Of a stretch of DNA of 64,000 nt, positions 28,982 through 59,120 are shown in pieces. Positions within the stretch are counted from its first letter, which is position 1, and each line of letters opens with the position of its first letter. The stretch spans positions 1-64,000 of the IMG/VR virus record IMGVR_UViG_3300025929_000012; one strand, given 5' to 3'. A program made the position numbers and the translations under genes. The stretch is from a virus. The notes beneath the pieces were generated by a model that was not told the origin of the DNA, searched no databases, and saw only the letters and a list, made by a program, of their open reading frames with translations.

Positions 28982-29359
28982 TTACGGCCCTGCGCGGGCC
29001 GGGGGAACTGGCGGCGGCGCGGGCGCGACCGGCGTCTGGTGGGCGCGGAGGACGATGGCGAGGACCGCGACGTCGGCGACGTTCACCGCGGACACGGTCG
29101 CTGCCGTGATGTGCGGGACCCCGAACGCGACGAGGCAGACGAGGATCGCGGTTAGACCGCCGGTCAGGATGGGGACGGAGACGGGCCGGGTAGCTGCGGC
29201 GACGATGATGGCCGCGACTCCCGCCGCCGCCGCCTCGAGCGCCCCCGTCTCCCCGGCGGTCAGGGTCAGCCCGAGGGCCAGCCCGATGCCGAGGCCAGCC
29301 TGGCAGAGGCCGGTAACCATCGCCGGCTCATTGCGGATGGTGCGGGTGATCGCGTCCAA
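28982..29359 (-). CDS. Holin
   Basis: Multi-TM small protein, NEPA..A.TRP..R..TP; near lysin. Confidence 0.75.
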   Translation of the reverse strand: MDAITRTIRNEPAMVTGLCQAGLGIGLALGLTLTAGETGALEAAAAGVAAIIVAAATRPVSVPILTGGLTAILVCLVAFGVPHITAATVSAVNVADVAVLAIVLRAHQTPVAPAPPPVPPARAGP

Positions 29360-29397
29360 CGGGGCACCCCCTATGACGGTGCACTACAATGACAGTC

Positions 29398-29694
29398 ATG
29401 CAGGACGTTGAGCTGACCCTGAAGGCGGCGCGGGTCCTCCGGGCGTTCCTTGAGGACCCCGCAAGGCCCCGGTACGGGCTGGAGCTGATGAAGGCCACGG
29501 GGATGGTCAGCGGCACCTTGTACCCGATCCTCGCGAGGCTCGAAAGAGCCGGGTGGCTGGCCGCGGAGAAGGAGGACGTCGACCCGCGCGTGGCAGGCCG
29601 GCCGCCCCGCATGCACTACGTGATCACTGATGAGGCGGTCCCGGTGGCCCGCGTGAGGCTGGCCTCGATCGCCGCCGAGCTCGGGGGGCGATGA
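29398..29694 (+). CDS. PadR-family regulator
   Basis: YGLELMKATG..SGTLYPILARLE.AGWL..GRPPR..Y.IT; TACAAT-7nt-ATG. Confidence 0.85.
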   Translation: MQDVELTLKAARVLRAFLEDPARPRYGLELMKATGMVSGTLYPILARLERAGWLAAEKEDVDPRVAGRPPRMHYVITDEAVPVARVRLASIAAELGGR

Positions 29695-29888
29695 TGTCAG
29701 CTGACACCGGGCCGAAGGGGATGGCGGTCATCCGCTGGATAGCTGAGCACCCGGGCTGCTCTAAAGCCGAGGCGGCCAAGGGGGCTAACGCAAGCTATGA
29801 CTCGGTTGAGAGGCTAATCCGGCGGGGCGTGGTGATCGCGGAGGAGACCTCTTACCGCTACCGGCTGTACCTGGCTGGCAGCGCTTAG
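29691..29888 (+). CDS. Small winged-helix-like protein
   Basis: IAEHPGCSKAEAA..VERLIRRG..YRLY. Confidence 0.6.
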   Translation: MMSADTGPKGMAVIRWIAEHPGCSKAEAAKGANASYDSVERLIRRGVVIAEETSYRYRLYLAGSA

Positions 29889-30841
29889 GCGCCGATCAAA
29901 ACTCCCCAGGTGAGGGGCCCGCAGACCCCATCGGGAGCGAGCCCGAAATGCCGTTGCACCGCTTGGAGCGTTATCTTGGTCGCCGGCCCGAACGTGCCGT
30001 CGATGACAGCCGGGTAGCCGCGCGCGGTGCATAGTGCCTGGAGGGTGCGGACGGCTGGCCCGGTGGCGCCCTGGGAGAGGACGGGGAGCCTCGTGACGGG
30101 CACGGGGACAGGCGGCGGCCGGCCGGGGACGGGGACTGGCTTCGCCGGCGGCACCGGGACGGGCTTCGGGGCGGGACCGGCGGCGGGCCAGCCGAGCGCG
30201 GCGAGCTCCCCGATCGTCCCCCGCCAGACGGAGCAGTCACAGGTGCCGACGCCGGGTACCGGGTAGGCATCGGTGAACTGCCACAGCAAGTGGTTCCCGC
30301 CCGGCTCGTTGTTCCGGTAGGCAGCGACCCAGTGCGGTGACATGCCGGCGGCCTGCCCGAATGACAGCCCTGAGTACAGCCACGGCATTGCCCGGGGCCC
30401 GTACGCGGCGGTGATGACCGCTGACCACTGCCGCCACCGGGCGTACTGCGCTGAGGCGGGGCCTTCCTCGATGTCGCAGATGAGCTTCTCGCCGGGGCGG
30501 AGGTTCCCGACGAGCCTGACGAGGGCGTGGGCCTGCTCGGCGGCGTCCTGCCCGGCGACCAGGTAGGCGTACATCCCTACGAAGGCCGCCCCGCCAGCGT
30601 GGAGGAAGTCCCTGCGCTGCCCGCCGTACCACGCCCGGTCAACCTGGGTTCCGTACATCGCGCGGAAAATGATGGCACGGGACCAGGCCAGGTAGGCACC
30701 CGTGATGTTCGGCTGCCAAACCGAAATGTCCGCTAGCAGCACGCGCGGCCCGGCGGCCTCGGGCACTGACGCCGCGAGGGTGCCGTCGCTGTCCTCATGC
30801 CCGGCGCGGAACATGACCGGCTGGCCTTCGGGGTCGCTCAC
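29885..30841 (-). CDS. Endolysin, GH25-like muramidase plus peptidoglycan-binding domain
   Basis: ADISVWQ..CDIEE..WVAAY..LWQFT; Pro linker; G.TG.AV..LQ..DGTFGP.T..DGVCGP.TW; RBS GAGGAG. Confidence 0.9.
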   Translation of the reverse strand: MSDPEGQPVMFRAGHEDSDGTLAASVPEAAGPRVLLADISVWQPNITGAYLAWSRAIIFRAMYGTQVDRAWYGGQRRDFLHAGGAAFVGMYAYLVAGQDAAEQAHALVRLVGNLRPGEKLICDIEEGPASAQYARWRQWSAVITAAYGPRAMPWLYSGLSFGQAAGMSPHWVAAYRNNEPGGNHLLWQFTDAYPVPGVGTCDCSVWRGTIGELAALGWPAAGPAPKPVPVPPAKPVPVPGRPPPVPVPVTRLPVLSQGATGPAVRTLQALCTARGYPAVIDGTFGPATKITLQAVQRHFGLAPDGVCGPLTWGVLIGA

Positions 30842-30999
30842 GGAAGCCTCCTCGCGTGGCATCAGGTGCCCGTCCCGGCCCTGGTCGTAGAGCCGCTCAC
30901 CGTGTCCGGGCGGGGCGGGGCGCGGACGGCGACGCCAGCGGGGCATGGCCTGCCTCCCCCGCTTTGCCGGTCTATCGAAAATCGTGGTACCGTGGACTC

Positions 31000-31326
31000 G
31001 TGACAGTTAGCTCAGCCCGCATCCGCGTGTCCATGGTCGTCCTGGACGTCCTGGACGCCATCGACAGTTCCCCGGCCGATGACCCTGCGTGGGGCTTGCG
31101 GCTGTGCGAGCAGACCGGTCACGGCCCGGGTACCGTCTACCCGGCGCTGGACAAGCTGCTGAAGGCCGGGTGGATCGCTGACCGGTGGGAGGACCCGCAG
31201 CCCGCAGACAGGCCCCGCAGGCGCTTCTACGCCCTCACTGACGGGGGCCGGGCCATGTACCGGGCCGCGCTAGCCAGCCGTGAGGCGCGGCGCGCGGTAT
31301 GGTCGCGCGCCGGGGAGGCCCGGTGA
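31000..31326 (+). CDS. PadR-family regulator
   Basis: WGLRLCEQTG..PGTVYPAL..L..GWI..WE..RPRRRFY.LT; TACCGT-6nt-GTG. Confidence 0.85.
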   Translation: MTVSSARIRVSMVVLDVLDAIDSSPADDPAWGLRLCEQTGHGPGTVYPALDKLLKAGWIADRWEDPQPADRPRRRFYALTDGGRAMYRAALASREARRAVWSRAGEAR

Positions 31327-31718
31327 TCTGCAAGGAATGCGGCACCGTGTTCTGCTGGGATGAGGCGGCCGAGGCGGGTGGAGAGCGCAGGGAGTACTGC
31401 TCCCGGAAGTGCAAGCGCACGAGCCAGGCCCGCAGGCGTGGTCACCGCCACCTCACGGAGGAGCAGAGAGCCAAGATGGCCGCATGCGCAGCCAACGGGA
31501 AGGTCGGCTACCCGGGTCCTGTGGCCGCGGCGCGGGCGGCAGCCGAGATAGCGGCGAGGAAAGGGCACGACTACAGGCCGCTGACGCCGTACAGGTGCCC
31601 GTGCGGGTGGTGGCACCTCACCAAGGCGAAGGCGAAGCTAAAGTACCTTGACCGCTTGGCGAAGATTCCCGGCGGGACCGAAGCGCTCCTGATACTACCT
31701 CCCGCCGCGTCCCGGTGA
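31323..31718 (+). CDS. Zn-binding hypothetical protein
   Basis: CKECG..YCS..C; C..KVGY..YRCP.CGWWHLT. Confidence 0.65.
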   Translation: MICKECGTVFCWDEAAEAGGERREYCSRKCKRTSQARRRGHRHLTEEQRAKMAACAANGKVGYPGPVAAARAAAEIAARKGHDYRPLTPYRCPCGWWHLTKAKAKLKYLDRLAKIPGGTEALLILPPAASR

Positions 31719-31753
31719 ACTGCGATCGGCCGCGGCGTCTCCCCTGGTAGCGG

Positions 31754-35571: not shown

Positions 35572-35600
35572 TTGCCTCCCACGTCTTTACCAGGTAAAGT
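35572..35600 (+). promoter_or_regulatory. Promoter with palindromic operator (copy 3), leaderless
   Basis: TTGCCT-17-TAAAGT; CTTTACCAGGTAAAG at 35585-35599; ATG 7 nt downstream. Confidence 0.75.
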
Positions 35601-35607
35601 AAATGGC

Positions 35608-35838
35608 ATGACTAGCGTCCACGTACTGCAGGCCGTTACGCCTGCGGAGCTCCTGGCGGCTGAGGATGTCCCGGCAGGCGCTGCCCTCGTGCTTGACTGC
35701 TCATGCGGCGCGGAGATCCCGTGTGGTGGAGACGACGCCGATGCGGTCGAAGCGGCGTTCCAGGGGCACGTTCCCGGCAGCACTCTGGTGCGGGCCGGGA
35801 TGAACCTGCACGGCTCATGGCTGGAAGCGCCACAGTGA
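35608..35838 (+). CDS. Hypothetical protein (antisense cassette)
   Basis: Leaderless start; DCSCG..F..H. Confidence 0.6.
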   Translation: MTSVHVLQAVTPAELLAAEDVPAGAALVLDCSCGAEIPCGGDDADAVEAAFQGHVPGSTLVRAGMNLHGSWLEAPQ

Positions 35839-36095
35839 GCGCCGGCGAGGTGACCACTGCGGGCCTCGAAGGGGCTAACGGCAATGAGCTGACCGTTGAC
35901 GAGGTCAAGGCCATCCGCAGTCTCCACCGGCTAGCCAAGCGCTGGCCGCAGACGCTCAAGCTCGTCAGCATGGGCGGCTCGCTCTACGTGATCCACACGG
36001 CCGATGAGCGGTTCAACGACCCGTTCGCCCTCGTGCGAGGCGAAGCGATCCTTGACACCATCTTCGGCATTCCGAACGACGGGGGCGACTGGTGA
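35835..36095 (+). CDS. Hypothetical protein (antisense cassette)
   Basis: GTGA overlap; RLAKRWP.TL..GIPNDGGDW. Confidence 0.65.
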   Translation: MSAGEVTTAGLEGANGNELTVDEVKAIRSLHRLAKRWPQTLKLVSMGGSLYVIHTADERFNDPFALVRGEAILDTIFGIPNDGGDW

Positions 36096-38062: not shown

Positions 38063-39214
38063 TTAAGCCACGGTGACCGGGGTGAGTACCATGGACCGCT
38101 CGCTCAGAAGCCCCGTGAGCGATTGATCCAGTGACTGGAACGCGCTGACCTGCGCGGTCTGCGTCTGGTCATCGTAGGAGTAACCGCCCACGATGAACGA
38201 CACCGGTCCCGGGACTACCTCCCCGCCGTAGGACCCATCCGTGAGGATCAGCCGGCAGACCGTGCCCGCTTGCTCGCATCCCAGGTCGACGGGTTGCCCG
38301 CCAAGGTTGAGGAGCTGCCCGGGGCCGACCGTGAAGGGCCCGGCGAATGAGGCGCGCGTGTAAGCGGCCAATACGCTTGAGCCAACTCCCTGCGCCGCTG
38401 CGAGGGTCATCGTCCCGGCGCTGCTCAGGTCCACGTAGGTTTCCATCGTCCCGTGGGCGGCGACGGAGGCGGCGTTGGACACGTAGGTGAGCGAGAACGT
38501 CGCCGCGGCCCCGGTGGCGGCGTTGTCGGCCGCTGACTGGTACCGGATGTAGATGGCGTTGATGTCGCCGCCGAGCGTCCGCGGGACCGGCGTGTTGCAC
38601 ACCAGCAGCCGGTTGACGGTGGTGGGCAGCGGGAAGACGGACAGGTCGTTGCCGGGCACGCCGCCGGGCTGGCTGGAGACGTACCAGGTGAGGCCGCCCC
38701 TGGAGCACACGAGGTTGAGGAGGTCGGTGACGGTCCCGGCTGCCGGGTCGGGGGCCTGCCCGAGCCACATCCCGGCGGGGGTGCCGATGCCCGGGTTGAC
38801 CCATTGCAGGCCGCGGGACAGGGTCCGGTTCACTGCCTCGTCGGGGTTCCCCGTCGGCCAGGTGAGGGCGTAGTACGCCTGGAAGTCACTGCCCTGGTTG
38901 CCAACGCCGACTGCCGCGAGGTTCCAGCCGGAGGCGGTGGGGACCGGCTCGTCCAGCTTCCCCGCCCACACCTGGTGCCCGCCCCGGATCACGGACACGG
39001 TGCGGCCCGGGTTGATCGCCGGCACCCGCTCGGTGGCGGGGACCTGCAGCGTGCAGGTGAGCTGATCAGGGCCGCCCGGCATTACGGTCGACCAGTTCAA
39101 TCCCGTCACATGCCCGATGGAGCCGAGCCAGCGGGGATCGCCGCCGCCGGGGAGGCTGGTGACCACCTGGGAGCTATCGGGGACTGTGTAAGCCATCGGC
39201 TCCGCCACCGTCAC
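38063..39214 (-). CDS. Minor tail protein
   Basis: Follows large tail protein; VW.G.L.EP motif. Confidence 0.7.
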   Translation of the reverse strand: MTVAEPMAYTVPDSSQVVTSLPGGGDPRWLGSIGHVTGLNWSTVMPGGPDQLTCTLQVPATERVPAINPGRTVSVIRGGHQVWAGKLDEPVPTASGWNLAAVGVGNQGSDFQAYYALTWPTGNPDEAVNRTLSRGLQWVNPGIGTPAGMWLGQAPDPAAGTVTDLLNLVCSRGGLTWYVSSQPGGVPGNDLSVFPLPTTVNRLLVCNTPVPRTLGGDINAIYIRYQSAADNAATGAAATFSLTYVSNAASVAAHGTMETYVDLSSAGTMTLAAAQGVGSSVLAAYTRASFAGPFTVGPGQLLNLGGQPVDLGCEQAGTVCRLILTDGSYGGEVVPGPVSFIVGGYSYDDQTQTAQVSAFQSLDQSLTGLLSERSMVLTPVTVA

Positions 39215-47526: not shown

Positions 47527-47707
47527 CGTCCTGCCGCCGCCGGACGAGTGGAACCGGGCCGTTGAGCACAGCCGCGCCTGCCCGGGGCACAGCCTCGGGC
47601 CCTACGAGGACGACGACGGCAACACGCACATGTCCTGCGACGGCAGCGGCGACCCGTATGAGCCGTCGAACTGCGGCTTCGACACCGCTACCGGGGCGCG
47701 GACATGA
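47516..47707 (+). CDS. Small Cys-containing protein
   Basis: ATGA overlap with next gene. Confidence 0.5.
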   Translation: MPGDVLPPPDEWNRAVEHSRACPGHSLGPYEDDDGNTHMSCDGSGDPYEPSNCGFDTATGART

Positions 47708-48066
47708 GCGAGGACGACAACGGGCGGCTAGAAGATGCCAACGCCCGTCTAGGCGAGGCGATCACCGGGGCAGCCGAGGCGGTAGCCCGGTCCCTCGGAT
47801 CACTGACCGGATGCGTCATCGCGGCGCTGCGGGTCCTCGCCGCTGACCCGGTGGTGCGGTTCGCGATGGAGCACCCGGAACTGCTCCGGGCAGAGCGGCC
47901 TAAGCCGTGCTGGTGCCTGTGCGCTAAGGCCCACCCGGGGCTAGCGGTCTGCGACGGCGAGGGCGTCGCCACCGGGACGGTCACCCTGGAGGGCTACGGG
48001 CCGGTGACGGTGCAGTACTGCGCCGCGTGCGCCGCCGCGCAGGCGAGCCGGAGGTTCCGCTCGTGA
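47704..48066 (+). CDS. Zn-binding hypothetical protein
   Basis: C.CLC..H..VC..CAAC. Confidence 0.6.
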   Translation: MSEDDNGRLEDANARLGEAITGAAEAVARSLGSLTGCVIAALRVLAADPVVRFAMEHPELLRAERPKPCWCLCAKAHPGLAVCDGEGVATGTVTLEGYGPVTVQYCAACAAAQASRRFRS

Positions 48067-48386
48067 CCGTGACCGCCCCGGCTAGCACGGCCGAGTCCCG
48101 GGCTGCCGCCCTCACCATGTTCGAGGGACGGGTTCCGTGCCTGTTCCATCTCGCGGACCCGGCATGCGCGGCGGTTGCCCGGTGGCTGGCGTGGTTCGCC
48201 CATGAGGAGAACACCGCACGCTGCGAGAGCGACGAGCCGTGGCCTGTCTGCGACCAGCACAAGCAGGTGATCCAGGCGAGCAGTGACCCGTTCTGGCGTA
48301 CCTGGCACAACATGCAGCCGGTTCTCTGCACGCGGTGCGGGACGCCGCTGCGGCTGGAGCGTTTCGAGCCGCTGTCATCGCCTTAG
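48063..48386 (+). CDS. Zn-binding hypothetical protein
   Basis: PC..C..VC..H..CTRCG. Confidence 0.6.
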   Translation: MTVTAPASTAESRAAALTMFEGRVPCLFHLADPACAAVARWLAWFAHEENTARCESDEPWPVCDQHKQVIQASSDPFWRTWHNMQPVLCTRCGTPLRLERFEPLSSP

Positions 48387-49083
48387 CGCCGCTGCCCTTC
48401 CAGGCTGGCGATCATCCCGGCGAGGTCGAACGCCTCCGCTTCAGCAGCTTCCACGGCCCGGTACCCGGACCCTGCGGCGGTGAGTGACCGAATGTCATCG
48501 GGGACGGTCATGTCCGCGTTCAGCGGCACCTCAGGCCGGGTCAGGAGCTCTTCGGCGTAGAAGCCTTCCAGGTACGCCTGCTGGTGCGCCCAGGGCAGTC
48601 CCGCCCATGCCTGCGGCGAGTAGCCCAGGTACCGGCGGGCCAGGTACAGGATGAGCCTGTTGTTGGCTAGCTGACGGACCTTAGCGCCGGCCTCGAAGCG
48701 GCGCCGCCTGCTTCCGGGTTCAGCTCACCGGCCAGCCAGCTGAAGAACGCGAGCCGCACCCTGGGGGGCAGCTTGGAGATCTGCGCGAGGGTCGGGGAGC
48801 CGCCGCACAGGTCCGCGTACGGCTTGGTCAGCACTGACAGCACTGATGGGAGCTGGCCTTCGGGGAGCGCGGCGATCGCGGTGAGGATCGCCTCCGGGTC
48901 GGTCCCGGCCGCCTCGACGCCTGCCATCGACGCCGCGTTCTTCGCCTGGCTGACGGCGAGGTCGGTGATGAACTTGTCGAGGCGCTTCTCGGACGGCTCG
49001 GGGACGGTGCCCTTCCCGCCGTTGTACGCGGTGAAGTCCCATTCGAGGGGCTCCACCACCGTGCCACTGTCGAAACCTGGCAT
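48383..49083 (-). CDS. Tail assembly chaperone G (48667-49083) and G-T product via -1 frameshift at CCCGGAA (48712-48718)
   Basis: Between major tail and tape measure; -1 frame is open (..LYLARRYLGYSP..W..LPW..) with no good start of its own. Confidence 0.75.
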
Positions 49084-49148: not shown

Positions 49149-49502
49149 ATGGATGAGATGAGCATCGAGCAGGCACGGCTGAAGCTCGGGGAGGTCGTTG
49201 ACCGGGCGCGGATCGCGGATCAGTTCACGACGATCACCCGCCAGGGGAAGCCCGCCGGCGTGGTCGTGTCACCGGGCTGGCTTGAGCGCACGCGGGCAGC
49301 GCTCGCCGCCTTCGCGGGCAGCGAAGACCCGCCAGTCTCGGCCAGTGAGGTACGCAAGCACGTCGTTCACCTGGGCGGCCTGCTGGACGGGATGCGCAAG
49401 ATCATGCTCACGGACGAGGTGCGGGACTACTGGAAGCACCTTCAGGACGAGGTCGTTGCCCTCGCCGCCTTGCTACCGGAGAACGCAGAGGGAGAGCAGT
49501 AA
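49149..49502 (+). CDS. Phd/YefM antitoxin-like protein
   Basis: MSIEQARLKLGEVVDRA..TITRQGKPAGVVV; TAGGAT-6nt-ATG. Confidence 0.8.
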   Translation: MDEMSIEQARLKLGEVVDRARIADQFTTITRQGKPAGVVVSPGWLERTRAALAAFAGSEDPPVSASEVRKHVVHLGGLLDGMRKIMLTDEVRDYWKHLQDEVVALAALLPENAEGEQ

Positions 49503-49592
49503 TGACGGAGCACGCGGACCACGACACCGGGGGCTACCCGGCTGGGGCGATCACCATTACGTGGAACTGGACGCGGAAGGGCGCGAGAAGCG

Positions 49593-50343
49593 ATGACCGC
49601 CGACTTCGACTGTGAGGCGTACGGCCCGGAAGGCCGGAAGATCGGCGCGCTGTGCTTCATCACCGCTGACCTGGGCGGCCGGATGTGCGCCACGGCGGCG
49701 GACTGCCACCGGGTGACCGGCGCCGAACGGCAGGAGATATTCCGCGACGCCCGCGAGAGGGCCGCCGCAGGTGACCCGGTAAGCGAGGAGTGCCTTGAGG
49801 ACGCGTTCCTGTGGCCCGGAGGCGGATCATGAGCGGGCTAGGCGTGCCAGCCGGGCAGGGAGTGTTCGCTGAGATCGGCTTCCTTGAGCCCTGGGGACGC
49901 GACGACATGTCCGAGGGCGTCACCGGCTGCCTGCTGCCCAGTTACCCGGAGGCTGAGATGTGGGTGATCGAGCAGAAGGGCCTGCACCGGAACTGGCTGG
50001 TCACGAGCGTGCAGATCACCGCCGAGGGGGAGGGCGGCGGGTGATGGCCAGGTTCAAGAGGCTGACTGACGCCGAGGCCCGCACCCTGACGCGCCGCGAG
50101 CTACTGGACCGGATCGAGGCCGAGCAAGCCTACTGGTTCCGCAAGAAGACCCGCACGGGCGCGGATGATGCCGCGTTCCGCGAGTTCACACGGATCATGT
50201 ACGCCTACCTGGACCCTGCCGCCGCGATGCAGGACACGATCGACCACATTGAGGGCCGCTCGGCCGGCGGCTACTGGAAGACCCGCCCGGGTGAGGATGT
50301 CGCTGAGGCGGCGGCCCTCCTCGGTGGTGGTGAGGGCTCGTGA
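49593..50343 (+). CDS. Three small hypothetical ORFs (49593-49832, 49829-50044, 50044-50343)
   Basis: Translationally coupled overlaps. Confidence 0.55.
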
Positions 50344-50648
50344 ACGCCGCCATCGTCTCGGGCTTCCTCGCCATCCTGGCCGGGATCATCGCGGAGAACG
50401 CCCACGTCTACTGGCATCGCAAGTGGCTGCGATGGCTGTCGCTAGGACTGAACATCCCCGGTGCCCTGCTGCTCACCTGGGGGGCGGACATGGCGCACAG
50501 GAGCATCCTGGCAGCCACGGCGGTCGTCGTCTGCGCGGCGTTCGTCCTAGCCGTAGGCGGGTCGCTGGCGTTCATCGCCTTCATGGCCGAGGTCAGGCAC
50601 CAGGGGTGGGCGCCGGTCGTGAGGCGCATGCGGAAGCCGCCCCGGTAG
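50340..50648 (+). CDS. Three-TM membrane protein
   Basis: Hydrophobic segments. Confidence 0.6.
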   Translation: MNAAIVSGFLAILAGIIAENAHVYWHRKWLRWLSLGLNIPGALLLTWGADMAHRSILAATAVVVCAAFVLAVGGSLAFIAFMAEVRHQGWAPVVRRMRKPPR

Positions 50649-50807
50649 CTCCCCCTACGAGTGCGACGCGCCGCCGCAAGGTGTCTCGTATGGCCACCTC
50701 TCGCAGCGAGGGCAGCGGCCCATGGTCGTCACCTTCGGAACGGACGCCTGCGGGTTCGCTGTCGTGTCACCTGGGATGGCAGCCATCAGGGGCACCTCTC
50801 GTTTCCT

Positions 50808-51476: not shown

Positions 51477-52091
51477 CTAGAAGAGCATGCCCTCCGGTGG
51501 CGGGGGGACGGCTAGCGCGATGCGGCGGAAGGCGCGGGCCAACTGCGTCCGGCTAATCCCCGACTCGGCAGCCAGCGCCAGGACGGTTGCCCCGGCCCGC
51601 CAGCGCGCGTACAGGGCGGTGTACACCTCATCGTCGTACTTGGTGTTGACGCCGCGCTCCGCGTTGACCTTCTGGGGGACTGGCTCCAGATGATTCGGGT
51701 TGACGCACCGCCTGTGAAGGCACTGCCGCCCGCCGGGGCACGTCAGCCGCTCGCGGGTGTGGCACAGGTGGTCAAGTTGGAGGCCAGCCGGGACCGGCTT
51801 CACGAAGCGCTCATACGCCCAGCGATGCGGGCCGACTACCTTCCTAGCGCCGTTCCCGAACTCGCCGTAACCGTCGCGATTGACGCTAGCCGTCCACGTC
51901 CAGCACCCGCCGGGCTCCTTGCGGACATGAGAGAAGAACCGCTCCTCCATGTCTTCGATGACCGTGGAGCGTGCCCCGCCGAGGTTGCCGCTGTTGCGCT
52001 GCCGCAGGTAGTGCATGTTGCACAACCCGAGCGCGTAGTGAGGCTTGGGGCAACTGCCGTCACCGGCATAGCCGCAAGTACGCTGTTGCAT
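51477..52091 (-). CDS. Freestanding HNH homing endonuclease
   Basis: GCWTWT..GYG..HR..YE..LDHLC..CVNPNHLEPV..N. Confidence 0.9.
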   Translation of the reverse strand: MQQRTCGYAGDGSCPKPHYALGLCNMHYLRQRNSGNLGGARSTVIEDMEERFFSHVRKEPGGCWTWTASVNRDGYGEFGNGARKVVGPHRWAYERFVKPVPAGLQLDHLCHTRERLTCPGGRQCLHRRCVNPNHLEPVPQKVNAERGVNTKYDDEVYTALYARWRAGATVLALAAESGISRTQLARAFRRIALAVPPPPEGMLF

Positions 52092-52199: not shown

Positions 52200-52808
52200 C
52201 TATGAGGTCGCGATGGCGGTCAGGTCAATTAGAGAGACCGAGGACATGGGGCAGGTCGCTGAAAGGGTCACGGGATAGAGCCGCGCATTAGCGGCTCTCC
52301 GGAAATCTGTCTTCACGCTCCCGGCGCTCATGACGGTGGGCACCGACAGTACCCGGGCGAAGCCGAGCTGGTTCTTGCCGACGACCGCACAGGCAAGGCT
52401 CGCGAAACTTGTCGAAAGTACGAGCGTGGACTTGCCGGGCTGGCTGGCGCCGGGGGCGGTGACCGAGATCGAGCCACCGTTGCCGTACGCCAAGTTGACG
52501 TTCGCCAGCGTCTCCTCGGAGAGGCTCGTGGTTATCTGAAGGCTGACGTTGGTGACGATCACCGCGACCGGCGTCGTTTGCTCTTCGACATTGATGTCGT
52601 TAGTCGACGGAGCGTAGTTGACGGAAACACCCTGGTCGGTGGCCCCGACGTAGGACCAGCCGCCGGACACCCAGGAGGAGCCGACGCCGAGGTTCTGATC
52701 GGACGGGAGGGCGGTGCCGACGGGGGCGGTAAATAGAACACCAATTCCATACAAGACGTTGGTGCTCGTGTAGGCGGGAGGGGTGTAGAGCAGCGGCGCA
52801 CCAGGCAT
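52200..52808 (-). CDS. Major tail protein
   Basis: G.L.TAP.GT..P..W..VGAT..GV..I.VE..L.E.TL.N. Confidence 0.8.
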   Translation of the reverse strand: MPGAPLLYTPPAYTSTNVLYGIGVLFTAPVGTALPSDQNLGVGSSWVSGGWSYVGATDQGVSVNYAPSTNDINVEEQTTPVAVIVTNVSLQITTSLSEETLANVNLAYGNGGSISVTAPGASQPGKSTLVLSTSFASLACAVVGKNQLGFARVLSVPTVMSAGSVKTDFRRAANARLYPVTLSATCPMSSVSLIDLTAIATS

Positions 52809-52929: not shown

Positions 52930-54260
52930 ATGGGCGACACGCTGACGAGGCCGGCGGCGGCATGCCGTGACGTGATGGGCACGCTCGCGGTCCGCCTGTG
53001 CACGCTGCAGGAGGCGCGGATGGCTTCCGGGGCGGTGCTGCTGCTCCCCGCCGGGACCTGCCCCGATGCCGGGGACCGCTACTGCGGCTGGCCCGTGGTC
53101 AGGTGCTGCTGCATCCGGGAGCCGATGATCGGACTGCCGGGTCGCGATCGGGGGCGCGTGGCGTGAGCAGCCCCTTGAAGCTGACCGTCATGACCGGGGC
53201 GGAGGGCGAGCCGACCGGGTTCGACTCCGCGATCGCATCCGTGCCCGGCCGCCTCTGGCACGTCACCGCGGACGGGGAGCGGATGCTGCTGCTGTCGGTG
53301 GCCCGCCGTGAGCTGCGGGAACTGTCGGAGAAGCTCGCCGCGGGCATCAGGGAAAGGCTTCATCACGCCGACTGGGTGATCACCGCCGACCCGGATGAGG
53401 TCGCCGCGCTGGGGCTGATGCATGACTGCGCGTCCTGCCGGGCCGGGGTTGACCAGGCGCTTGCGCGGATGCGGGAGAAGCCCGGCACGGACATGGCCGT
53501 CGGGCAGTTGTGGTGGGCGCGGCAGTGAGCGGCCGGTGGGAGCACGACGACGGCGAAGCCCGGTGGGAGCTGGTCGCCTACCGCGAGGACGTCCCCAGGA
53601 TGACCACGGACCGGATTGTCGGCGCATGGGTGACTGACGAGATGATCGCGTCGGTGGCCAGCCCGCAGAGGCTCGCCGTGAGCCTGTTCAATACGATCGG
53701 GTCGGTGCCGCCCCCGCTGGAGGAGCACCTTCCGCCGTGGGACCCGAACGTGGTCACCTGCGGGGCCGGATCGTGAGCGGCTTCAATAAGCCGGTGCCGA
53801 AGGTTGCCCGGGTGCTGCTGCGGGTTGAGTGGATGGACGGGCAGGTCCGGGAGTTCGACGCCGAGGAACCGCACGGGCTGGAGGTGGCCATCGGGCGGGA
53901 GCCGCCACCGCCGGACTTCGACGCGTGGGCGGAGGCGCTGGGGAATGAAGCGGGCCTGTGGAGGCCAGAGCACCTGCTGGGCCCGGAGGCGATCTACGAC
54001 GGGGGCGCGTTCGGCGTCGAGGTGAGGTTCAAGGCCAACTCGGACAGCAGCAGGCACCCGTTCACGATCCGGGAGCCGGAACTGTGACCGCGCCCGCGTT
54101 CACCTGCCCGTGCTGCGGCGCGGTGTCGCATCACCCTGCCGACGTTGAGTTCCGCTACTGCGGACGCTGCCACTGGTACACGGGTGATCCTGAGCTCGGC
54201 CCGGTGCACCTCGCGGATGCGTGCGAGGCCCGGACTGCGCCTACAGCTCGCGGAGGGTGA
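52930..54260 (+). CDS. Five-ORF antisense cassette (52930-53166, 53163-53528, 53525-53776, 53773-54087, 54084-54260)
   Basis: TACGAT-7nt-ATG; chained GTGA overlaps; last ORF is a Zn ribbon (FTCP.CG..SHHP.D..YCG.CH). Confidence 0.65.
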
Positions 54261-54621
54261 GCCCGGCTGCCTGCGCTGCCGCGTAAGCCCGTTCAGCGAC
54301 CGCGTCCGGTACCTCGGTGCCGTACACGTCGATGGTGACCGTCTCCCCGCCAGCCTCAAGGGGGGGCACGATCAGCTCGGTCATCGGGGGGACGGTGGCG
54401 AGGTTCACGTGCCCTTCGCGGGCGGGCTCCATCGGCTGGGGGAAGACGGCGGTGCCGGTGTCGGTGACCGCCACCCCGCCGGCCTGCGCGGTACCCTCCT
54501 CGGCAGGCGGGGGGAACCCGGTGGGGATCGGCGGCGGCACGGGCGGGTCCTCTACGGGCACCACGGGCGGGTCCGCGGCGTCCGCCGGCTCCGGCGCGTC
54601 TTGCTCGGGCGTGAAGGGCAC
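54241..54621 (-). CDS. Pro/acid-rich virion-region protein
   Basis: RBS AGGAGG. Confidence 0.6.
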   Translation of the reverse strand: MPFTPEQDAPEPADAADPPVVPVEDPPVPPPIPTGFPPPAEEGTAQAGGVAVTDTGTAVFPQPMEPAREGHVNLATVPPMTELIVPPLEAGGETVTIDVYGTEVPDAVAERAYAAAQAAGLTLREL

Positions 54622-54631
54622 TGCGAGCCTC

Positions 54632-55003
54632 CTAAGGGACGGGAACGCACTGATACAGCGTGACGCTGTTGCCGGTGACCACGGAGAAGTCGACGTAGGC
54701 CATGCCGGAGCCGTCGGCCTGGGTGAAGTCAGCGGCGGACCACGGGCCGAAGATGTAGTTGGTGGAGTTCGCCACCGCGGCCTGGATCGTGGACGCCGGG
54801 TACGCCTGGCCTTGCACCTTCCGGCCGATGTTCGACTGGACGTTCCCGGCCCCCGCAGCGCCGACGTACACGACGAGGAAGACCATCCCGTTGTTCGTGA
54901 ACTGGACGCCGGTGAAGGTCGCGAGAGACTGGGCGCCTGACGTGGGGAGGAGCAGGCCGGATGGCCCGGCGAGGTTGACCGGGGTGAGGGTGACGCGTGC
55001 CAT
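54632..55003 (-). CDS. Beta-sandwich virion protein
   Basis: F.NNG..L.V..IFGPW..F. Confidence 0.65.
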   Translation of the reverse strand: MARVTLTPVNLAGPSGLLLPTSGAQSLATFTGVQFTNNGMVFLVVYVGAAGAGNVQSNIGRKVQGQAYPASTIQAAVANSTNYIFGPWSAADFTQADGSGMAYVDFSVVTGNSVTLYQCVPVP

Positions 55004-55044
55004 CGCCGCCGCCTTCCGCTAGTGGGACTGGTAGGGCAGCCGGG

Positions 55045-55476
55045 TCACGTGGAGTCAGCCAGCCACTTCTGGAAATCGCCGTAGACGATGATCGGGCACG
55101 ACGTGACGGTGCTCCCGGCGGTGATGCCGAGGCGGATGTAGGAGCCGGGGAAGCCGCCGTTGACGGGGATGATGAAGCTCGCGCCCGTGACCGCGGTGAT
55201 CGCGGTGATGGTGGTGCCGACTCCGTTGAGGGGGTTGGTGATCAGCCCGGCGGCAGCTGCTCCGGAGGCGCCGATCCACGTGGTGCCGTTGTCGGGGCTT
55301 ACCTGGAGGAACGGCAGGATCGTGGGGGTGCCGGCGATGGTGCCGAAGATCCCGTACACGTAGCCGCGGACCCAGTCCGACGCGCTGAACGCGGGGCCGT
55401 AAGTGGTCGCCGCGGCGGCTAGGGTGGTCTGGGGGTAAAGCTTGACGACGTCGCTCTCGTACCCGATGGGACTCAA
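55045..55476 (-). CDS. Beta-sandwich virion protein (start uncertain)
   Basis: LQVSPDNGTTW..YIRL. Confidence 0.65.
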   Translation of the reverse strand: MSPIGYESDVVKLYPQTTLAAAATTYGPAFSASDWVRGYVYGIFGTIAGTPTILPFLQVSPDNGTTWIGASGAAAAGLITNPLNGVGTTITAITAVTGASFIIPVNGGFPGSYIRLGITAGSTVTSCPIIVYGDFQKWLADST

Positions 55477-55501
55477 CTCCTTGACACGGAGGCCAGCGGC
55501 C

Positions 55502-55936
55502 TCAGTTGCTCACTTCGATGAGGTACTGGCAAACAAAACTGAACCTGTCTGCGTCGTCAGGCTCCCCTGACAGCGGCGCTGGTGCCCCCGACAGCCGGTG
55601 CGCGGTCACGATCACCTGGCCGGACGGCAGCGTCACCGGGTAGGCCGCGGCGAAGATGAGGGCATCGAGGCGGTGGGCGAGCGCCTCAGCGGCGGACTGG
55701 GCGCCCGGGGAGCCGTCGCCGCCCTGCGGCCCCCGTACGCGGGCCTGGAAGCCGCACACGTCGGTGGCGCCCTCAAGGCGGTACCCGGCCCCGGGGGTCG
55801 GCGTGATCACGCACACCTGGTCAGGGCTATCGGGGATGTACGGGCCGAGGTAGAACGGGACGCCGGTCTCCTGGTTAGAGTCCCACCCGCCGAGGGTCGA
55901 AAGCCACGAGATCAACGCTGCGGACGGGACGGGCAT
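55502..55936 (-). CDS. Tail terminator/tail completion protein
   Basis: GP..PD..IT..PG.G..EGA.D..FQ.RVRG..AE.LA..LD. Confidence 0.75.
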   Translation of the reverse strand: MPVPSAALISWLSTLGGWDSNQETGVPFYLGPYIPDSPDQVCVITPTPGAGYRLEGATDVCGFQARVRGPQGGDGSPGAQSAAEALAHRLDALIFAAAYPVTLPSGQVIVTAHRLSGAPAPLSGEPDDADRFSFVCQYLIEVSN

Positions 55937-56465
55937 CGCTCACCCCGGGCGTGGTCTCGGAGCCGGAGCACTGCCCGTCAATGGCCTGATGGCAGCCGTT
56001 GTCCTGCCAGACTGCGGCCGGGCAGGAGCATTCCGGGCCTTGACTAGGGCGGACCGGGCACCCGGGATGGGAATACGCGCACCAGTGCAGTCCGGCGAAG
56101 GTGACGCCGCCCGGCTGGCAGGCGAGGACGGCGAGGCCCCGGGCGAGGTGGTTGAACACTTCCCCGGCGGACCAGGACGGCTCACCGCGCACGTGGCAGT
56201 AGCACTTCGGGCTGACACAGCCTTCACCGTGGCAGCGGCAGTCCCTCACCGTGCAGCGCGGCCCGGAAAGGTGCCCGGCCAGTTCTTTCGCCCCGTGGCC
56301 GAACCGGGGGCCGCCGCCGTACTGGAGGACGTCGCCCTGTGACCCGGTGACGCTGGCCGCCTCTTCCGCGATCCGGTGGCGTTCCGCGAACGGCAGGCCC
56401 CGCACCTCGGCGAGGTGCATCGGGACGGCGACTTCAAGGGTGATCGCGAGGACCCCGCTATCCAC
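55875..56465 (-). CDS. Hypothetical phage protein
   Basis: L..AVP..GD.LQY..FN.LARGLA.LA.QPGGVTFAG.HWC. Confidence 0.65.
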   Translation of the reverse strand: MDSGVLAITLEVAVPMHLAEVRGLPFAERHRIAEEAASVTGSQGDVLQYGGGPRFGHGAKELAGHLSGPRCTVRDCRCHGEGCVSPKCYCHVRGEPSWSAGEVFNHLARGLAVLACQPGGVTFAGLHWCAYSHPGCPVRPSQGPECSCPAAVWQDNGCHQAIDGQCSGSETTPGVSDARPVRSVDLVAFDPRRVGL

Positions 56466-57144
56466 GGGCTGCCCTCGCCTTGTCCCGTTCCCGGCGGCGC
56501 AGGACCCCCATGACGCTGTCGTTGCCGGAACGGCACACGTGAGCGCCCCGCCGGTCATTGCCCCACAGCCGCGACGGCTGCTCGCCCTCATGCCACAGGC
56601 GCAGGAACCGCAGCCGGGCCAGCCGGACGCGCCGGTAGTAGGCGCCCATCCGCAGCCCCAGCGCAGCCGCGGCCTTGCCGTACTCGTCATGCACCGCCAG
56701 CGCCAGCAGCGCTTCCCGGTCCACGTCGCGGAGCCGCGCCCACACCTGCCACAGCGCGAGCCGCTCCACGATGCCGTTCTCCGGCGAGGGAGTGACCCGC
56801 ACTGCCTCATTCCAGTACAGGGCGTAGCTGGGCCTCTCGCTGCCGTCCGGTTTCAGGCCCCAGTGGTGCCGCTCGTCGGTCAGGAACCCCGACAGTGCCT
56901 CCCACCCGGCATGCACTAGCTCAGACGGCTCAGGGCGGTCCTCAGCGGCGTACAGGGCCTCCGCGATGCCTGACCAGGCGAGGTGGTAGCGGAGCCGCCG
57001 GTCAGCGTTCCTCGCCCATCCCCGGGACAGCGCCGAGCGTGCCAGGACGTCCAGGTCGGCGAGGTTGTAGCCGTGGCGCAGCGCGTGAACGTCCTCGTAA
57101 GCGAGTTGCACCCTCACCCGCCCGCAGTGCTCGGAGCCGCTCAC
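56458..57144 (-). CDS. Sigma-70 region-4-like transcription factor
   Basis: L..V..RL..DREAL.A..Y..AAA.LG..RV..AR..F. Confidence 0.55.
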   Translation of the reverse strand: MSGSEHCGRVRVQLAYEDVHALRHGYNLADLDVLARSALSRGWARNADRRLRYHLAWSGIAEALYAAEDRPEPSELVHAGWEALSGFLTDERHHWGLKPDGSERPSYALYWNEAVRVTPSPENGIVERLALWQVWARLRDVDREALLALAVHDEYGKAAAALGLRMGAYYRRVRLARLRFLRLWHEGEQPSRLWGNDRRGAHVCRSGNDSVMGVLRRRERDKARAARG

Positions 57145-57322
57145 GGGCGGCGGGATCGGCGGGCAGCCCCCAGCGCCCCGACTTCTGCCGCGCCAGCCCT
57201 GCGTCTGCGGGGTCCTTGCACAGGACGGGTGGGACGCGCTTGCGGTCTACGTCGTGGTGGCGGTCGAACGCGGTCAGGCCGGTGAACCAGCGCAGGCAGG
57301 CGGCGCACTGGCAGGCGGGCAT
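57002..57322 (-). CDS. FDxHR-type Zn-binding protein
   Basis: QCAAC..FTG..AFDRHH..C.DP..GL..W. Confidence 0.65.
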   Translation of the reverse strand: MPACQCAACLRWFTGLTAFDRHHDVDRKRVPPVLCKDPADAGLARQKSGRWGLPADPAARERLRALRAGEGATRLRGRSRAAPRLQPRRPGRPGTLGAVPGMGEER

Positions 57323-57351
57323 CGCTCACCTCAACCGGCTACGGTGAGCGG

Positions 57352-57944
57352 ATGACACTTCACGATGAGCTAACAACCGAGGTCCGCCGTATCAACTGGG
57401 GCTGGTTCGGGGAGCCATGGCCGTCAGGCATCTGCTACGGCGACGACGGCCGGCTGCTGGAGGAGATGCGCAAGCCGTTCCCCGCAGGTGAGAACTGCCT
57501 GTACTGCGATGAGCCGTTCGACGAGGCCGCCGGTGATTCCGGGCAGGCGAGACCGCTCACCGGGCCGTCCGGCCGGTCAGAGATCCGCCATGTCCACAAG
57601 GAGTGCGGGCTCCGTGAGGTGACCGGTTCGGTTGCCTGCCTTGAAGGCCACCACCGGCACGACACGGGGCAGTCCCGGCGGCAGGAGGCGCTTGCAGCAT
57701 GGGCGTGGGTTCAGGAGCACGGGACGGCGGGCGGATGACCGGCGACACGGCGGCGCAGACTGAATCGCGGTCCGTGCCCGCCTTCCTGGTGCGGAACGTG
57801 CAGGAGCTAGCCTTCAGGATCGCGCAGGACCCGTACGCATGGCAGGTGGCCAGCGACCTGCGCAAGCTCGGGCTTGAGGTAGCGCTCCAGGTCCAGCCGC
57901 TCAGAAGCCCCGGCTCCACAGGAAGCGGAGCTGTTTCGCCGTGA
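57352..57944 (+). CDS. Two-ORF antisense cassette (57352-57738, 57735-57944)
   Basis: TACGGT-6nt-ATG; WFGEPW..CLYC.E..H.EC.LR. Confidence 0.65.
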
Positions 57945-58399
57945 ACCGTGACGGCACGGGGTGATGCAGCCGGTAAAGCGCCTTCAGTTCCTCTTCGGAC
58001 AGGCGATGCTGACGCGGGGGGCGGTCGTAGACGGTGACGCCGTCACTAGTCACGCTCGGGTGGCCGGAGGCCCGCAGGTTGGCGTACAAGACCGGAGCCC
58101 TGGTTGCGACCCCGCCCTCTTCGGCAAGGTTCTCCATGCTCTCAGCAAGCGACGCCTCGCCGCCATCCTTAAGCAGCCGGTCAGCGTACGCCTGAAGGTA
58201 GCGGGGGTGGTTGTCTAGCAGCGGCTGGGAGAGGTACAGCGCCTGCCCGCCCCTGGGATGCCTTAGGTCCAGGCCCTCGGGTAAGTGCTGGTAGCGCGCG
58301 TACATCTAAAATCTGGTCGACAACTACACTGCCGACCAGATCGCCGCTACCAACGATTTCCTTCAGGGCATCGATGCGCTCGCCAAAGGTGGAAGCCAT
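57901..58399 (-). CDS. HK97-gp10-like neck protein, frame broken near 58303-58312
   Basis: GSVVVDQ then YARYQH..EGL.L.HPRGGQA.YL..APV..LR.S in the +1 frame. Confidence 0.65.
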
Positions 58400-58667
58400 G
58401 ACCCCCTATCACCTCCCCTCAGCGACTGAGGCGAGCCGCGCGGACGCGGCGCTGGCCGTGATCTTCAGCAACCCGTGCGCCTGCCCGGAACGCCACGCGG
58501 GCAGCCCGGACGGCGCTTGTGGGCTCCGGGCTGCGAATACGATCAGTCACGCCGGAGCGGACCTCGCGGTGTGCATCCCCTGCGTGCGGTGCCTGCTTGA
58601 CGTAGAATTCGCGGTACCCCCGGGGCGCGCAAGCGGGTCAGCGAGCAGGCGCCTGCGGACTGGCTAG
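58398..58667 (+). CDS. Zn-binding protein (antisense cassette)
   Basis: AAAGGT-7nt-ATG; CAC..H..C..CIPC. Confidence 0.5.
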   Translation: MTPYHLPSATEASRADAALAVIFSNPCACPERHAGSPDGACGLRAANTISHAGADLAVCIPCVRCLLDVEFAVPPGRASGSASRRLRTG

Positions 58668-58766
58668 GGACCGTGATACTGCGCGGGGCACGAGCCTGCT
58701 CGATCGGCAGGCCGGTGCGGCGCAAGTCACGGGAACGGCCCCGGGGGGATCACAGGACGGGTGCGC

Positions 58767-59120
58767 TCACGGCGGGAAGCCGAGCCGCCGCATCGTGTCG
58801 GCCGCCTCGGGCAGCTTCATGCTCAGACCGTTCGGGGTGCTGGACCATCCGGGGTAGGCAGCCGAGTAGTCCCGGTCCAGCTGCACCGCTTCCTTCTCCA
58901 GGGCATCCCCGTACTCGGCCTGCGTGATGACGCCCTTGCTGACCAGCAGCCCGGTCAGCGCGGTCACCTCGGCGCGGAGCAGGATGGTGACCTCACGGTG
59001 ATCACGGACGGCCTTCGACTCCCCGTCGCTGTCGGGGCGGGTGCCGAGCTGCCAGCCGGTGAAGAACTTCCGCCACTTGGCCAGCTTCTCCAGCGCCGCC
59101 ATCAGGCTCTCGTCACTCAT
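58767..59120 (-). CDS. Conserved hypothetical phage protein
   Basis: KLAKWR..GWQLGTR..D.E..AVRDHRE.TILLRAE. Confidence 0.7.
   Translation of the reverse strand: MSDESLMAALEKLAKWRKFFTGWQLGTRPDSDGESKAVRDHREVTILLRAEVTALTGLLVSKGVITQAEYGDALEKEAVQLDRDYSAAYPGWSSTPNGLSMKLPEAADTMRRLGFPP

What the first reader, a model, noticed from the sequence alone, without database searches (positions are those of the whole stretch)
29359..58767. Late operon systematically interleaved with nine antisense, leaderless cassettes
Seen: + strand cassettes sit between - strand virion/lysis genes at 29398-29888, 31000-31718, 35608-36095, 42771-43196, 47362-48386, 49149-50648, 52930-54260, 57352-57944 and 58398-58667. Each first start codon has a -10-like hexamer 6-7 nt upstream and no clear RBS (TACAAT, TACCGT, TAAAGT, CAGGAT, GATGAT, TAGGAT, TACGAT, TACGGT, AAAGGT). 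Each begins within about 160 nt of the start of a divergent late gene. Cassettes even split normally adjacent pairs (chaperone/tape measure, tape measure/tail, lysin/holin). Inference: this exceeds occasional morons and suggests an excludon-like design, in which early or lysogenic antisense transcription silences the late operon at many points and late read-through shuts the cassettes off.
Basis: partly seen in the sequence, partly recalled or inferred. Interest (0 to 1): 0.8.

Follow-up and report, generated by a model that had tools for sequence, protein, structure and literature searches.

The report
Backward gene cassettes interrupting phage late operon
A 110-kb temperate soil actinobacterial phage has nine small backward-facing groups of accessory genes, most with their own promoter, between its tail, head-tail and lysis genes; this is an extreme case of known accessory-gene ("moron") insertion hot spots, not a demonstrated silencing device.

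Summary
At all nine places the + strand ORFs score best of the six frames. Eight of the nine cassettes have Pfam, PHROG or homologue support: two PadR paralogues, DUF6221, a Phd/YefM-like protein and a gene with 233 homologues. A TANNNT hexamer lies 6-7 nt before the first start codon in six of nine cassettes (chance about 1e-10). C4 and C5 have weaker NANGAT hexamers. C9 has an ordinary Shine-Dalgarno site.

Six of the nine convergent ends overlap the late gene or lie within 6 nt of it, leaving no room for a terminator. No late block downstream of a cassette has a recognisable promoter. So the sequence allows, and probably forces, overlapping sense and antisense transcription.

The "excludon-like design" reading is only partly supported.
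- Related phages (capsid 78-90% identical) carry 0-6 such cassettes.
- 15 of 29 relatives have no antisense gene between capsid and major tail gene.
- The same junctions hold inserts in both orientations in relatives (33 sense, 25 antisense genes).
- The nine promoters share no common operator.

The best reading is accessory-gene hot spots in a multiply interrupted "noncontiguous operon", a layout already reported for Staphylococcus phages. The new points are the number of interruptions (nine here, 13 in the whole leftward unit) and one junction whose leaderless promoter is conserved while its cargo varies. This scan noted a similar, unchecked pattern on another genome (e1-5892203). No RNA data exist.

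The parts
29398..29888 (+). C1: PadR-like regulator (29398-29694) and a 65-aa winged-helix-like protein (29691-29888). Lies between the holin-like gene and the endolysin. TACAAT sits 7 nt before the ATG.
   Evidence: 4-nt TTAG stop overlap with the endolysin.
31000..31718 (+). C2: second PadR-like regulator (31000-31326), 40% identical to C1a, and a Cys-rich 139-aa protein (31299-31718). TACCGT sits 6 nt before the GTG.
   Evidence: Hairpin at 31768-31813 just downstream.
35572..36095 (+). C3: promoter/operator (35572-35600; TTGCCT, 17-nt spacer, TAAAGT, with the palindrome CTTTACCnGGTAAAG). It drives a 76-aa ORFan (35608-35838) and a gene of about 92 aa (35817-36095).
   Evidence: Weakest coding signal of the nine.
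42771..43196 (+). C4: a single DUF6221 gene between the tape measure and minor tail genes. CAGGAT sits 6 nt before the GTG and could also act as an SD.
   Evidence: CTAG stop overlap with the tape measure gene. Minor tail start refined to 42732.
47362..48386 (+). C5: four small genes, two with a TM helix, between the chaperone frameshift extension and the tape measure gene. GATGAT sits 7 nt before the ATG.
   Evidence: A homologue of C5c with the same GATGAT-N6-ATG lies at the same junction in G003.
49149..50648 (+). C6: five genes. The first is Phd/YefM-like and the last is a multi-TM membrane protein. TAGGAT sits 6 nt before the ATG.
   Evidence: The first gene (71% aa identity) and its promoter are conserved in G002. 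C6b and C6d have homologues in a non-structural region of G003.
52930..54260 (+). C7: five small genes, the last a CxxC zinc-ribbon protein (54084-54260), upstream of the major tail gene. TACGAT sits 7 nt before the ATG.
   Evidence: Absent from G002 at this junction.
57324..57944 (+). C8: promoter GCTCACC-N12-TACGGTGAGCGG-ATG (57324-57351) driving two genes (57352-57738, 57699-57944).
   Evidence: The promoter is conserved at this junction in at least five relatives with unrelated cargo. C8a has 233 homologues.
58398..58667 (+). C9: a single 89-aa gene with an AAGGTGGA Shine-Dalgarno site, so probably not leaderless.
   Evidence: Hairpin at 58680-58725 after it.
28982..29359 (-). Holin-like multi-TM protein, the last gene of the leftward late unit.
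   Evidence: Followed by the only strong terminator.
28923..28962 (-). 18-bp-stem terminator that closes the late unit. It faces the convergent + early unit.
29885..30946 (-). Endolysin.
39211..42732 (-). Minor tail protein, with its start refined from 43089 to ATG 42732.
43193..47320 (-). Tape measure protein.
48383..49083 (-). Tail assembly chaperone (48667-49083) and its downstream extension ORF (48383-48529).
50655..50795 (-). Conserved 46-aa CxxC ORF of the backbone, between the major tail and chaperone genes.
51477..52091 (-). HNH endonuclease with its own TAGACT promoter-like site (52176) and leader hairpin (52116-52161).
52200..52808 (-). Major tail protein.
54241..59120 (-). Head-tail connector block: 54241-54621, 54632-55003, 55045-55476, 55502-55936, 56458-57144, 57901-58305 and 58767-59120. 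C8 and C9 interrupt it.

Best explanation
The nine + strand groups are real accessory-gene cassettes, morons in the broad sense. They sit backwards at recurrent insertion hot spots between conserved genes of the leftward late unit of a temperate actinobacterial siphophage.

Most start with a -10-only promoter placed 6-7 nt before the start codon. That would give a leaderless mRNA, which is a normal mode of expression in Actinobacteria. The cassettes can therefore be expressed independently of late transcription, in lysogeny or early infection.

They carry no terminators and abut or overlap the 3' end of the upstream late gene. Late transcription can therefore read through them (inferred). This makes the region a multiply interrupted noncontiguous operon.

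Collisions between polymerases and pairing of sense and antisense RNA are then unavoidable whenever both programmes are active. I take this as a consequence of the architecture that may sharpen the switch, not as the selected purpose.

Shown here: gene reality, promoter motifs, missing terminators, and hot-spot behaviour in relatives. Inferred: transcription start sites, read-through, timing and interference.
For: - Coding and homology support for the cassettes.
- TANNNT-N6/7-start in six of nine cassettes, against a frequency of 0.0011 per position. Internal genes are SD-led.
- Temperate lifestyle: tyrosine integrase and an HTH_3 repressor.
- Every cassette is an indel relative to G002, G003, G006 or G001, whose virion genes are 33-89% identical.
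- Junction gap lengths vary across 48 related loci, and inserts occur in both orientations.
- Cargo homologues lie in non-structural regions of relatives.
- G+C of the cassettes (0.695) is close to that of the late genes (0.706), so the genes come from the same pool.
- Tight convergent ends without terminators. G002 shows the same tight packing (coordinates).
- No promoter signal upstream of late blocks that follow cassettes.
- Noncontiguous operons are already reported in Staphylococcus phages (PMC7154746).
- Non-structural interruptions of actinophage virion operons are known (PMC3706429; PMC7302621).
Against: - There are no transcript data. TSS positions, read-through and timing are all inferred from motifs.
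- Several hexamers (TAGGAT, CAGGAT, TACGGTGAG) could equally act as SD sites.
- About 6.8 kb of untranslated antisense stretches in one late mRNA should provoke Rho-dependent polarity unless an unidentified antitermination system exists.
- This genome has about 24 antisense against 8-10 sense accessory genes, a bias the hot-spot model does not itself explain.
- Moron terminators, part of the classic definition, are absent.
Confidence: 0.6

Rival explanations
1. Excludon-like design. The selected function of the antisense promoters is to hold down the late and lysis genes at many points during lysogeny or early infection. Late read-through in turn shuts the cassettes off.
For: - No terminators and overlapping stops at the convergent ends.
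- Promoter DNA of C1, C4 and C5 lies within about 40 nt of the next late gene's start.
- The C8 promoter is conserved at one junction in at least five relatives while the cargo changes.
- Operator-bearing promoter families all point against the late genes: six copies here, four copies of a second type in G002.
- This genome shows an antisense bias.
Against: - Relatives with the same virion genes have 0-6 cassettes, and 15 of 29 have none between capsid and major tail gene.
- Sense inserts are as common as antisense inserts at the same junctions.
- Cargo is conserved as protein.
- The nine promoters share no operator.
- A prophage's late operon is normally silent anyway for lack of early activators (general phage biology).
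Confidence: 0.15
2. The region is not one operon. Each late block has its own promoter of a type not recognisable here, for example one dependent on a phage-encoded activator. Sense and antisense transcripts then barely overlap, and the cassettes are simply independent neighbours.
For: - Internal - strand promoter-like sites exist: TAGACT plus a leader hairpin before both HNH genes, TACGGT 8 nt before 59120, and TACATT 7 nt before 37876.
- Rho polarity would argue against reading through 0.3-1.5 kb untranslated stretches (general knowledge).
Against: - No TANNNT within 250 nt upstream of the nine late blocks that follow cassettes, and no shared k-mer there.
- Divergent gaps of 38-65 nt leave no room for a separate promoter outside the cassette.
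- In relatives without the cassettes the same genes are contiguous and co-directional.
Confidence: 0.15
3. Protein-level gating of lysis. The two paralogous PadR regulators that head C1 and C2 bind their own promoters, which lie 38 and 53 nt from the holin-like and endolysin starts. Bound there, they block late polymerases, so that lysis genes are controlled by repressors and not by antisense RNA. This applies only to C1 and C2 and is compatible with the best explanation.
For: PadR domains above the Pfam cut-off, 40% identity between the two paralogues, and their placement flanking the endolysin.
Against: No PadR-type operator (ATGT-N8-ACAT-like palindrome) was found by eye in either promoter. 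The relatives examined have different lysis regions.
Confidence: 0.08
4. Artefact: the + ORFs are chance open frames or shadows of - strand genes in 70% G+C DNA.
For: High-GC DNA gives 237 ORFs of at least 50 aa in this stretch. C3a is an ORFan with weak coding signal.
Against: The + frames have GC1 above GC2 and the best codon scores, while the - alternatives score about zero or below. Pfam, PHROG and homologue support exists for eight of nine cassettes.
Confidence: 0.02

Closest known systems
Noncontiguous operon (Saenz-Lahoya et al. 2019), reviewed as excludon type (d) in PMC7154746. The review says this layout also occurs in Staphylococcus aureus phages.
   Same: A co-directional operon contains genes on the opposite strand. 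The opposite-strand mRNA would be fully complementary to an untranslated internal stretch of the polycistronic mRNA. No terminators separate the two.
   Different: Known cases have one interspersed gene or group. Here there are nine in 30 kb and 13 in the whole unit. Co-transcription across the inserts and reciprocal regulation have not been shown here.
Phage morons (Juhala et al. 2000, HK97/HK022; own knowledge). Lambda bor is an example: an opposite-strand gene expressed in the lysogen, next to the late and lysis genes.
   Same: Extra genes lie between conserved neighbours, are absent from relatives, have their own promoter, and could be expressed when the late genes are off.
   Different: Classic morons carry their own terminator and often differ in base composition. 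These have neither. Their number and the leaderless layout are also unusual.
Non-structural interruptions of virion operons in large actinobacteriophages: Cluster J mycobacteriophages (PMC3706429) and Microbacterium Cluster EJ, which has four leftwards genes inside the structural operon (PMC7302621).
   Same: Large (about 110 kb) temperate siphophages of Actinobacteria whose virion operon holds many inserted non-structural genes, HNH genes included.
   Different: The described interruptions are mostly co-directional, or form a single reversed group. These phages are unrelated in sequence (capsid at most 41% identical to any isolate).
Convergent-promoter transcriptional interference in temperate phages, such as coliphage 186 pR/pL (own knowledge).
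   Same: Face-to-face transcription units without an intervening terminator, belonging to opposed developmental programmes.
   Different: In 186 a single promoter pair forms the lysis-lysogeny switch. Here many weak, heterogeneous promoters are scattered through structural genes.
Accessory and defence hot spots at fixed positions in P2/P4-like phages (own knowledge).
   Same: Conserved junctions with variable cargo across relatives.
   Different: None of the ten cassette proteins searched matched PADLOC. The cargo consists of small regulators, membrane proteins and zinc-ribbon proteins of unknown role.

Membership tests
Moron (accessory transcription unit in a phage late region) | Present between genes that are adjacent in related phages | tested here: met
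   All nine are indels relative to G001, G002, G003 or G006. Major tail, chaperone and tape measure genes are contiguous in G001 and G006.
Moron (accessory transcription unit in a phage late region) | Own promoter | tested here: inconclusive
   Sequence motifs only: TANNNT 6-7 nt before the start in six of nine cassettes. No TSS data.
Moron (accessory transcription unit in a phage late region) | Own terminator | tested here: not met
   Only C2 and C9 have a nearby hairpin. Six of nine ends overlap the late gene or lie within 6 nt of it.
Moron (accessory transcription unit in a phage late region) | Base composition different from the flanks | tested here: not met
   G+C 0.695 in the cassettes against 0.706 in the late genes.
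Noncontiguous operon / excludon | Opposite-strand gene(s) embedded among co-directional genes of one functional unit | tested here: met
   Gene map and annotation.
Noncontiguous operon / excludon | One polycistronic transcript spans the embedded gene in antisense | not testable with these tools
   Indirect evidence only: no promoter motif before the downstream late blocks and no terminators.
Noncontiguous operon / excludon | Reciprocal, mutually exclusive expression of the overlapping mRNAs | not testable with these tools
   Needs strand-specific RNA-seq.
Leaderless mRNA | Transcription starts at or within a few nt of the start codon, with no SD | tested here: inconclusive
   The spacing of -10 to start fits in six to eight cassettes. 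C9 has a clear SD. TAGGAT, CAGGAT and GGTGAG could also serve as SD sites.
Type II toxin-antitoxin pair (C6) | Antitoxin gene adjacent to a recognisable toxin gene | tested here: not met
   C6a matches the Phd/YefM N-terminal domain only. No neighbour matches a toxin family in Pfam, PHROG or PADLOC.

The most novel reading that the evidence does not exclude
The backward promoters form a distributed brake on the late genes. Operator-controlled, leaderless antisense promoters are kept at fixed junctions of the late operon whatever cargo they drive, as at the C8 junction. Together with the PadR pair around the endolysin, they set the timing of tail and lysis gene expression through polymerase collision and RNA pairing. 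This would be a multi-site noncontiguous operon used as a developmental timer in a phage.
Probability: 0.15. Interest if true: 0.8.

Novelty: new variant of a known kind. Interest (0 to 1): 0.45.

Why it matters
If late transcripts really cross nine (13 in the whole unit) antisense cassettes, this phage is a natural test bed for three questions. How does a long operon tolerate repeated head-on transcription and long untranslated stretches? Does it need processive antitermination? Does antisense placement insulate lysogenic or early genes from late expression?

The conserved leaderless promoter with swappable cargo at one junction also suggests how accessory genes are exchanged in an abundant, uncultured lineage of 100-130 kb soil actinophages. 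For annotation, it shows that opposite-strand small genes in high-GC phage late operons should not be dismissed as shadow ORFs.

Tried and rejected
- Megablast of 25 kb against isolated phages gave no match. The closest isolate capsid is 41% identical, so no published annotation is available.
- Relatives could not be drawn for a virus record. The search for related loci with 37220-37921 found nothing.
- Rfam at gathering threshold over 28-64 kb gave no family, so the cassettes are not known RNA elements.
- PADLOC on ten cassette proteins gave no hit.
- PHROGs found nothing for any C6 or C7 ORF or for C5a-c.
- The Atlas search for C7d was uninformative. The PDB sequence search for C6a found nothing.
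- The consensus sigma-70 promoter scan found nothing useful in this high-GC DNA.
- A shared-k-mer search across the 14 antisense promoters found only the known six-copy family. The same search upstream of the late blocks found nothing. A single regulon covering all cassettes, and a common late promoter, were therefore both rejected.
- The 116-nt conserved "non-coding" element in the C6 convergent gap turned out to be a small conserved - strand ORF.
- The spurious-ORF explanation was rejected.

Full report
**What the DNA is.** The window is the first 64 kb of a single-contig virus record of 110,328 bp with about 70% G+C.
- PHROG and Pfam searches identify on the - strand an endolysin (29885-30946), a minor tail protein, a tape measure protein (43193-47320), two HNH endonucleases and a major tail protein (52200-52808).
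- A tyrosine integrase (21184-22626) and an HTH_3 repressor-like gene (22623-23171) show the phage is temperate. DnaB and other replication genes are on the + strand.
- The - strand late unit runs from about 95 kb down to 28,982 and ends at the only strong terminator in the region (28923-28962, 18-bp stem).
- No isolated phage is close: megablast finds nothing and the best isolate capsid is 41% identical. At least 170 IMG/VR contigs share a capsid 78-90% identical. This is an abundant, uncultured lineage of soil actinophages. One C8a homologue comes from a Streptosporangiaceae metagenome bin.

**Are the cassettes real?** At 70% G+C every frame is full of ORFs: 237 of at least 50 aa in this stretch. 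I trained a codon log-likelihood model on the genome's long ORFs and used GC1/GC2/GC3 to tell genes from their antisense shadows.
- In all nine intervals the + strand ORFs are the best frame. The - strand alternatives score about zero or below, or show the shadow signature (GC1 below GC2).
- Independent support: C1a and C2a are PadR-family and 40% identical to each other. C4 is DUF6221 (E 5e-24) and C6a is Phd/YefM-like. C8a has 233 homologues at 55-89% identity.
- C5c, C6a, C6b, C6d, C7b, C7e and C9 have homologues in related phages.
- Only C3a is an ORFan with weak coding signal.
I refined some internal starts and three late-gene starts: minor tail ATG 42732, 35262-35528, and chaperone ATG 49083.
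- The cassettes total 6,843 nt, which is 23% of 28982-59120.

**Promoters.**
- Six fit the actinobacterial -10 pattern TANNNT at 6-7 nt from the first start codon. TANNNT occurs at only 0.0011 per position in this genome. Six of nine is therefore far beyond chance, about 1e-10 even with five candidate starts per cassette.
- The same layout marks the starts of other transcription units: repressor 23171, then 66960, 73144, 77979 and 95147.
- C4 (CAGGAT) and C5 (GATGAT) keep only the A2 and T6 positions. GATGAT-N6-ATG recurs at the same junction in G003.
- C9 has an ordinary AAGGTGGA Shine-Dalgarno site.
- Internal cassette genes are mostly SD-led, which fits a leaderless first gene. Leaderless mRNAs are common in Actinobacteria (own knowledge), so this feature is normal for the host clade.
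- The nine promoters are heterogeneous. C3 belongs to a six-copy, all + strand family: TTGCCN, a 17-nt spacer and TAAAGT, with the palindrome CTTTACCnGGTAAAG over the -10. C8 carries GCTCACC-N12-TACGGTGAGCGG-ATG, an inverted repeat around the -10.

**Ends and the late strand.**
- Three cassettes share a 4-nt TTAG or CTAG stop overlap with the upstream late gene (C1 with the endolysin, C4 with the tape measure gene, C5 with the chaperone extension).
- C7 and C8 overlap by 20 and 44 nt. C6 ends 6 nt from a conserved 46-aa - strand ORF. Only C2 and C9 have a nearby hairpin. The + transcripts must therefore run into late genes.
- Late genes that follow a cassette have SD-led starts. None has a TANNNT within 250 nt upstream, and they share no motif. 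Divergent gaps of 38-65 nt leave no room for a separate promoter. Read-through across the cassettes is the simplest inference but is not shown.
- The late region is not promoter-free. Both HNH genes have a TAGACT site plus leader hairpin, and 58767-59120 and the OmpR-like 37220-37921 have leaderless-type -10s.

**Comparison with relatives.** I fetched four complete or near-complete relatives.
- Antisense runs inside the late operon: nine here (13 in the whole unit), at least six in G002 (capsid 89%), two to three in G003 (86%), one in G006 and two in G001 (79%).
- In G001 and G006 the major tail, chaperone and tape measure genes are contiguous.
- Of 29 relatives that hold both capsid and major tail genes, 15 have no antisense gene between them and the maximum is three. 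This phage has seven to eight.
- Gap lengths at the C9, C8, C7 and C6 junctions vary from a few nt to 2.7 kb across 48 loci. The inserted genes are sense-oriented about as often as antisense (33 against 25).
- Cargo differs between phages at the same junction. The exception is C6a, which is conserved with its TAGGAT promoter in G002.
- Several cargo genes have homologues in non-structural regions of relatives.
- At the C8 junction the leaderless promoter is conserved in at least five relatives while the cargo is unrelated.
- G002 shows the same tight convergent packing (coordinates).

**Interpretation.** The junctions are accessory-gene hot spots, and this genome is the most heavily loaded member seen.
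- The backward orientation, own promoter and lack of terminators together allow expression outside the late programme without blocking late read-through.
- The resulting layout matches the noncontiguous operon, a sub-type of the excludon concept already noted in Staphylococcus phages (PMC7154746). It differs in having many interruptions.
- Non-structural interruptions of actinophage virion operons are also known (PMC3706429; PMC7302621).
It is weakened by the relatives that lack cassettes, the mixed orientation of inserts, the protein-level conservation of cargo and the heterogeneous promoters.
- It is not excluded. The conserved promoter with variable cargo, the operator-bearing promoter families that all point against the late genes, and the antisense bias in this genome keep it alive at about 15%.
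- One open problem for any read-through model is Rho polarity over 6.8 kb of untranslated late-sense RNA.

**Limits.**
- There are no RNA data. All promoter, TSS and read-through statements rest on motifs.
- Gene calls in relatives come from my own simple caller.
- Earlier unchecked notes of this scan describe the palindromic operator, the HNH promoter-hairpin modules and the OmpR-like gene on this genome, and a similar eight-cassette pattern on another genome.

Noticed in passing
window 12878-12906, 23602-23630, 35572-35600; genome 65160-65190, 65483-65513, 66925-66955: A six-copy promoter/operator family, all on the + strand: TTGCCN, 17-nt spacer, TAAAGT, with the perfect palindrome CTTTACCnGGTAAAG over the -10. 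Four copies are followed by a G-rich 5' hairpin and two by a leaderless ATG. The regulator is unknown.
   Followed up: partly
window 52116-52176 and 62108-62218 (- strand): Both HNH genes sit directly after the major tail and capsid genes. Each is preceded by GATAGACT and then a strong leader hairpin. The major tail plus HNH block is 74% identical in G002.
   Followed up: partly
window 50655-50795 (-): A conserved 46-aa CxxC small ORF between the major tail and chaperone genes. It is shared at DNA level with G002, G003, L113 and L124, and at first looked like a non-coding element.
   Followed up: partly
window 57901-58425 (-): DNA similarity to G002 continues about 120 nt upstream of the called start (58305) of the connector-like gene, and the G003 homologue is 47 aa longer. 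The gene may be frameshifted or have an N-terminal extension reaching the C9 start.
   Followed up: no
window 37220-37921 (-): An OmpR-type response regulator (receiver domain plus Trans_reg_C) lies among the tail genes, with TACATT 7 nt before an internal GTG at 37876. G002 and G003 have nothing at this position.
   Followed up: partly
window 29398-29694 and 31000-31326 (+): Two paralogous PadR regulators (40% identity) flank the endolysin gene, each heading its own backward cassette.
   Followed up: partly
L168 (G002 48588, 49330, 57986, 61115; strand antisense to the late genes): Four copies in G002 of the promoter type G(C/G/T)TCACC-N8-14-TACG(G/A)T(G/A)AGCGG. Three are directly followed by ATG or GTG, and all point against the late operon.
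   Followed up: partly
window 50808-51461 (-): A 217-aa protein with no Pfam or PHROG hit but relatives in at least 95 IMG/VR contigs. It sits in the late region here but in a different place in G001.
   Followed up: no
window 20984-21076 (+): A tRNA-Ser (GCT) lies immediately beside the integrase gene. It could be a phage tRNA or part of the attachment site.
   Followed up: no
genome 65559-68530, 73129-74594, 77979-78263, 88947-89264 (+): Four more + strand groups interrupt the same leftward unit beyond the window. One of them (65559-68530) carries three copies of the palindromic promoter and a DUF3560 gene.
   Followed up: partly
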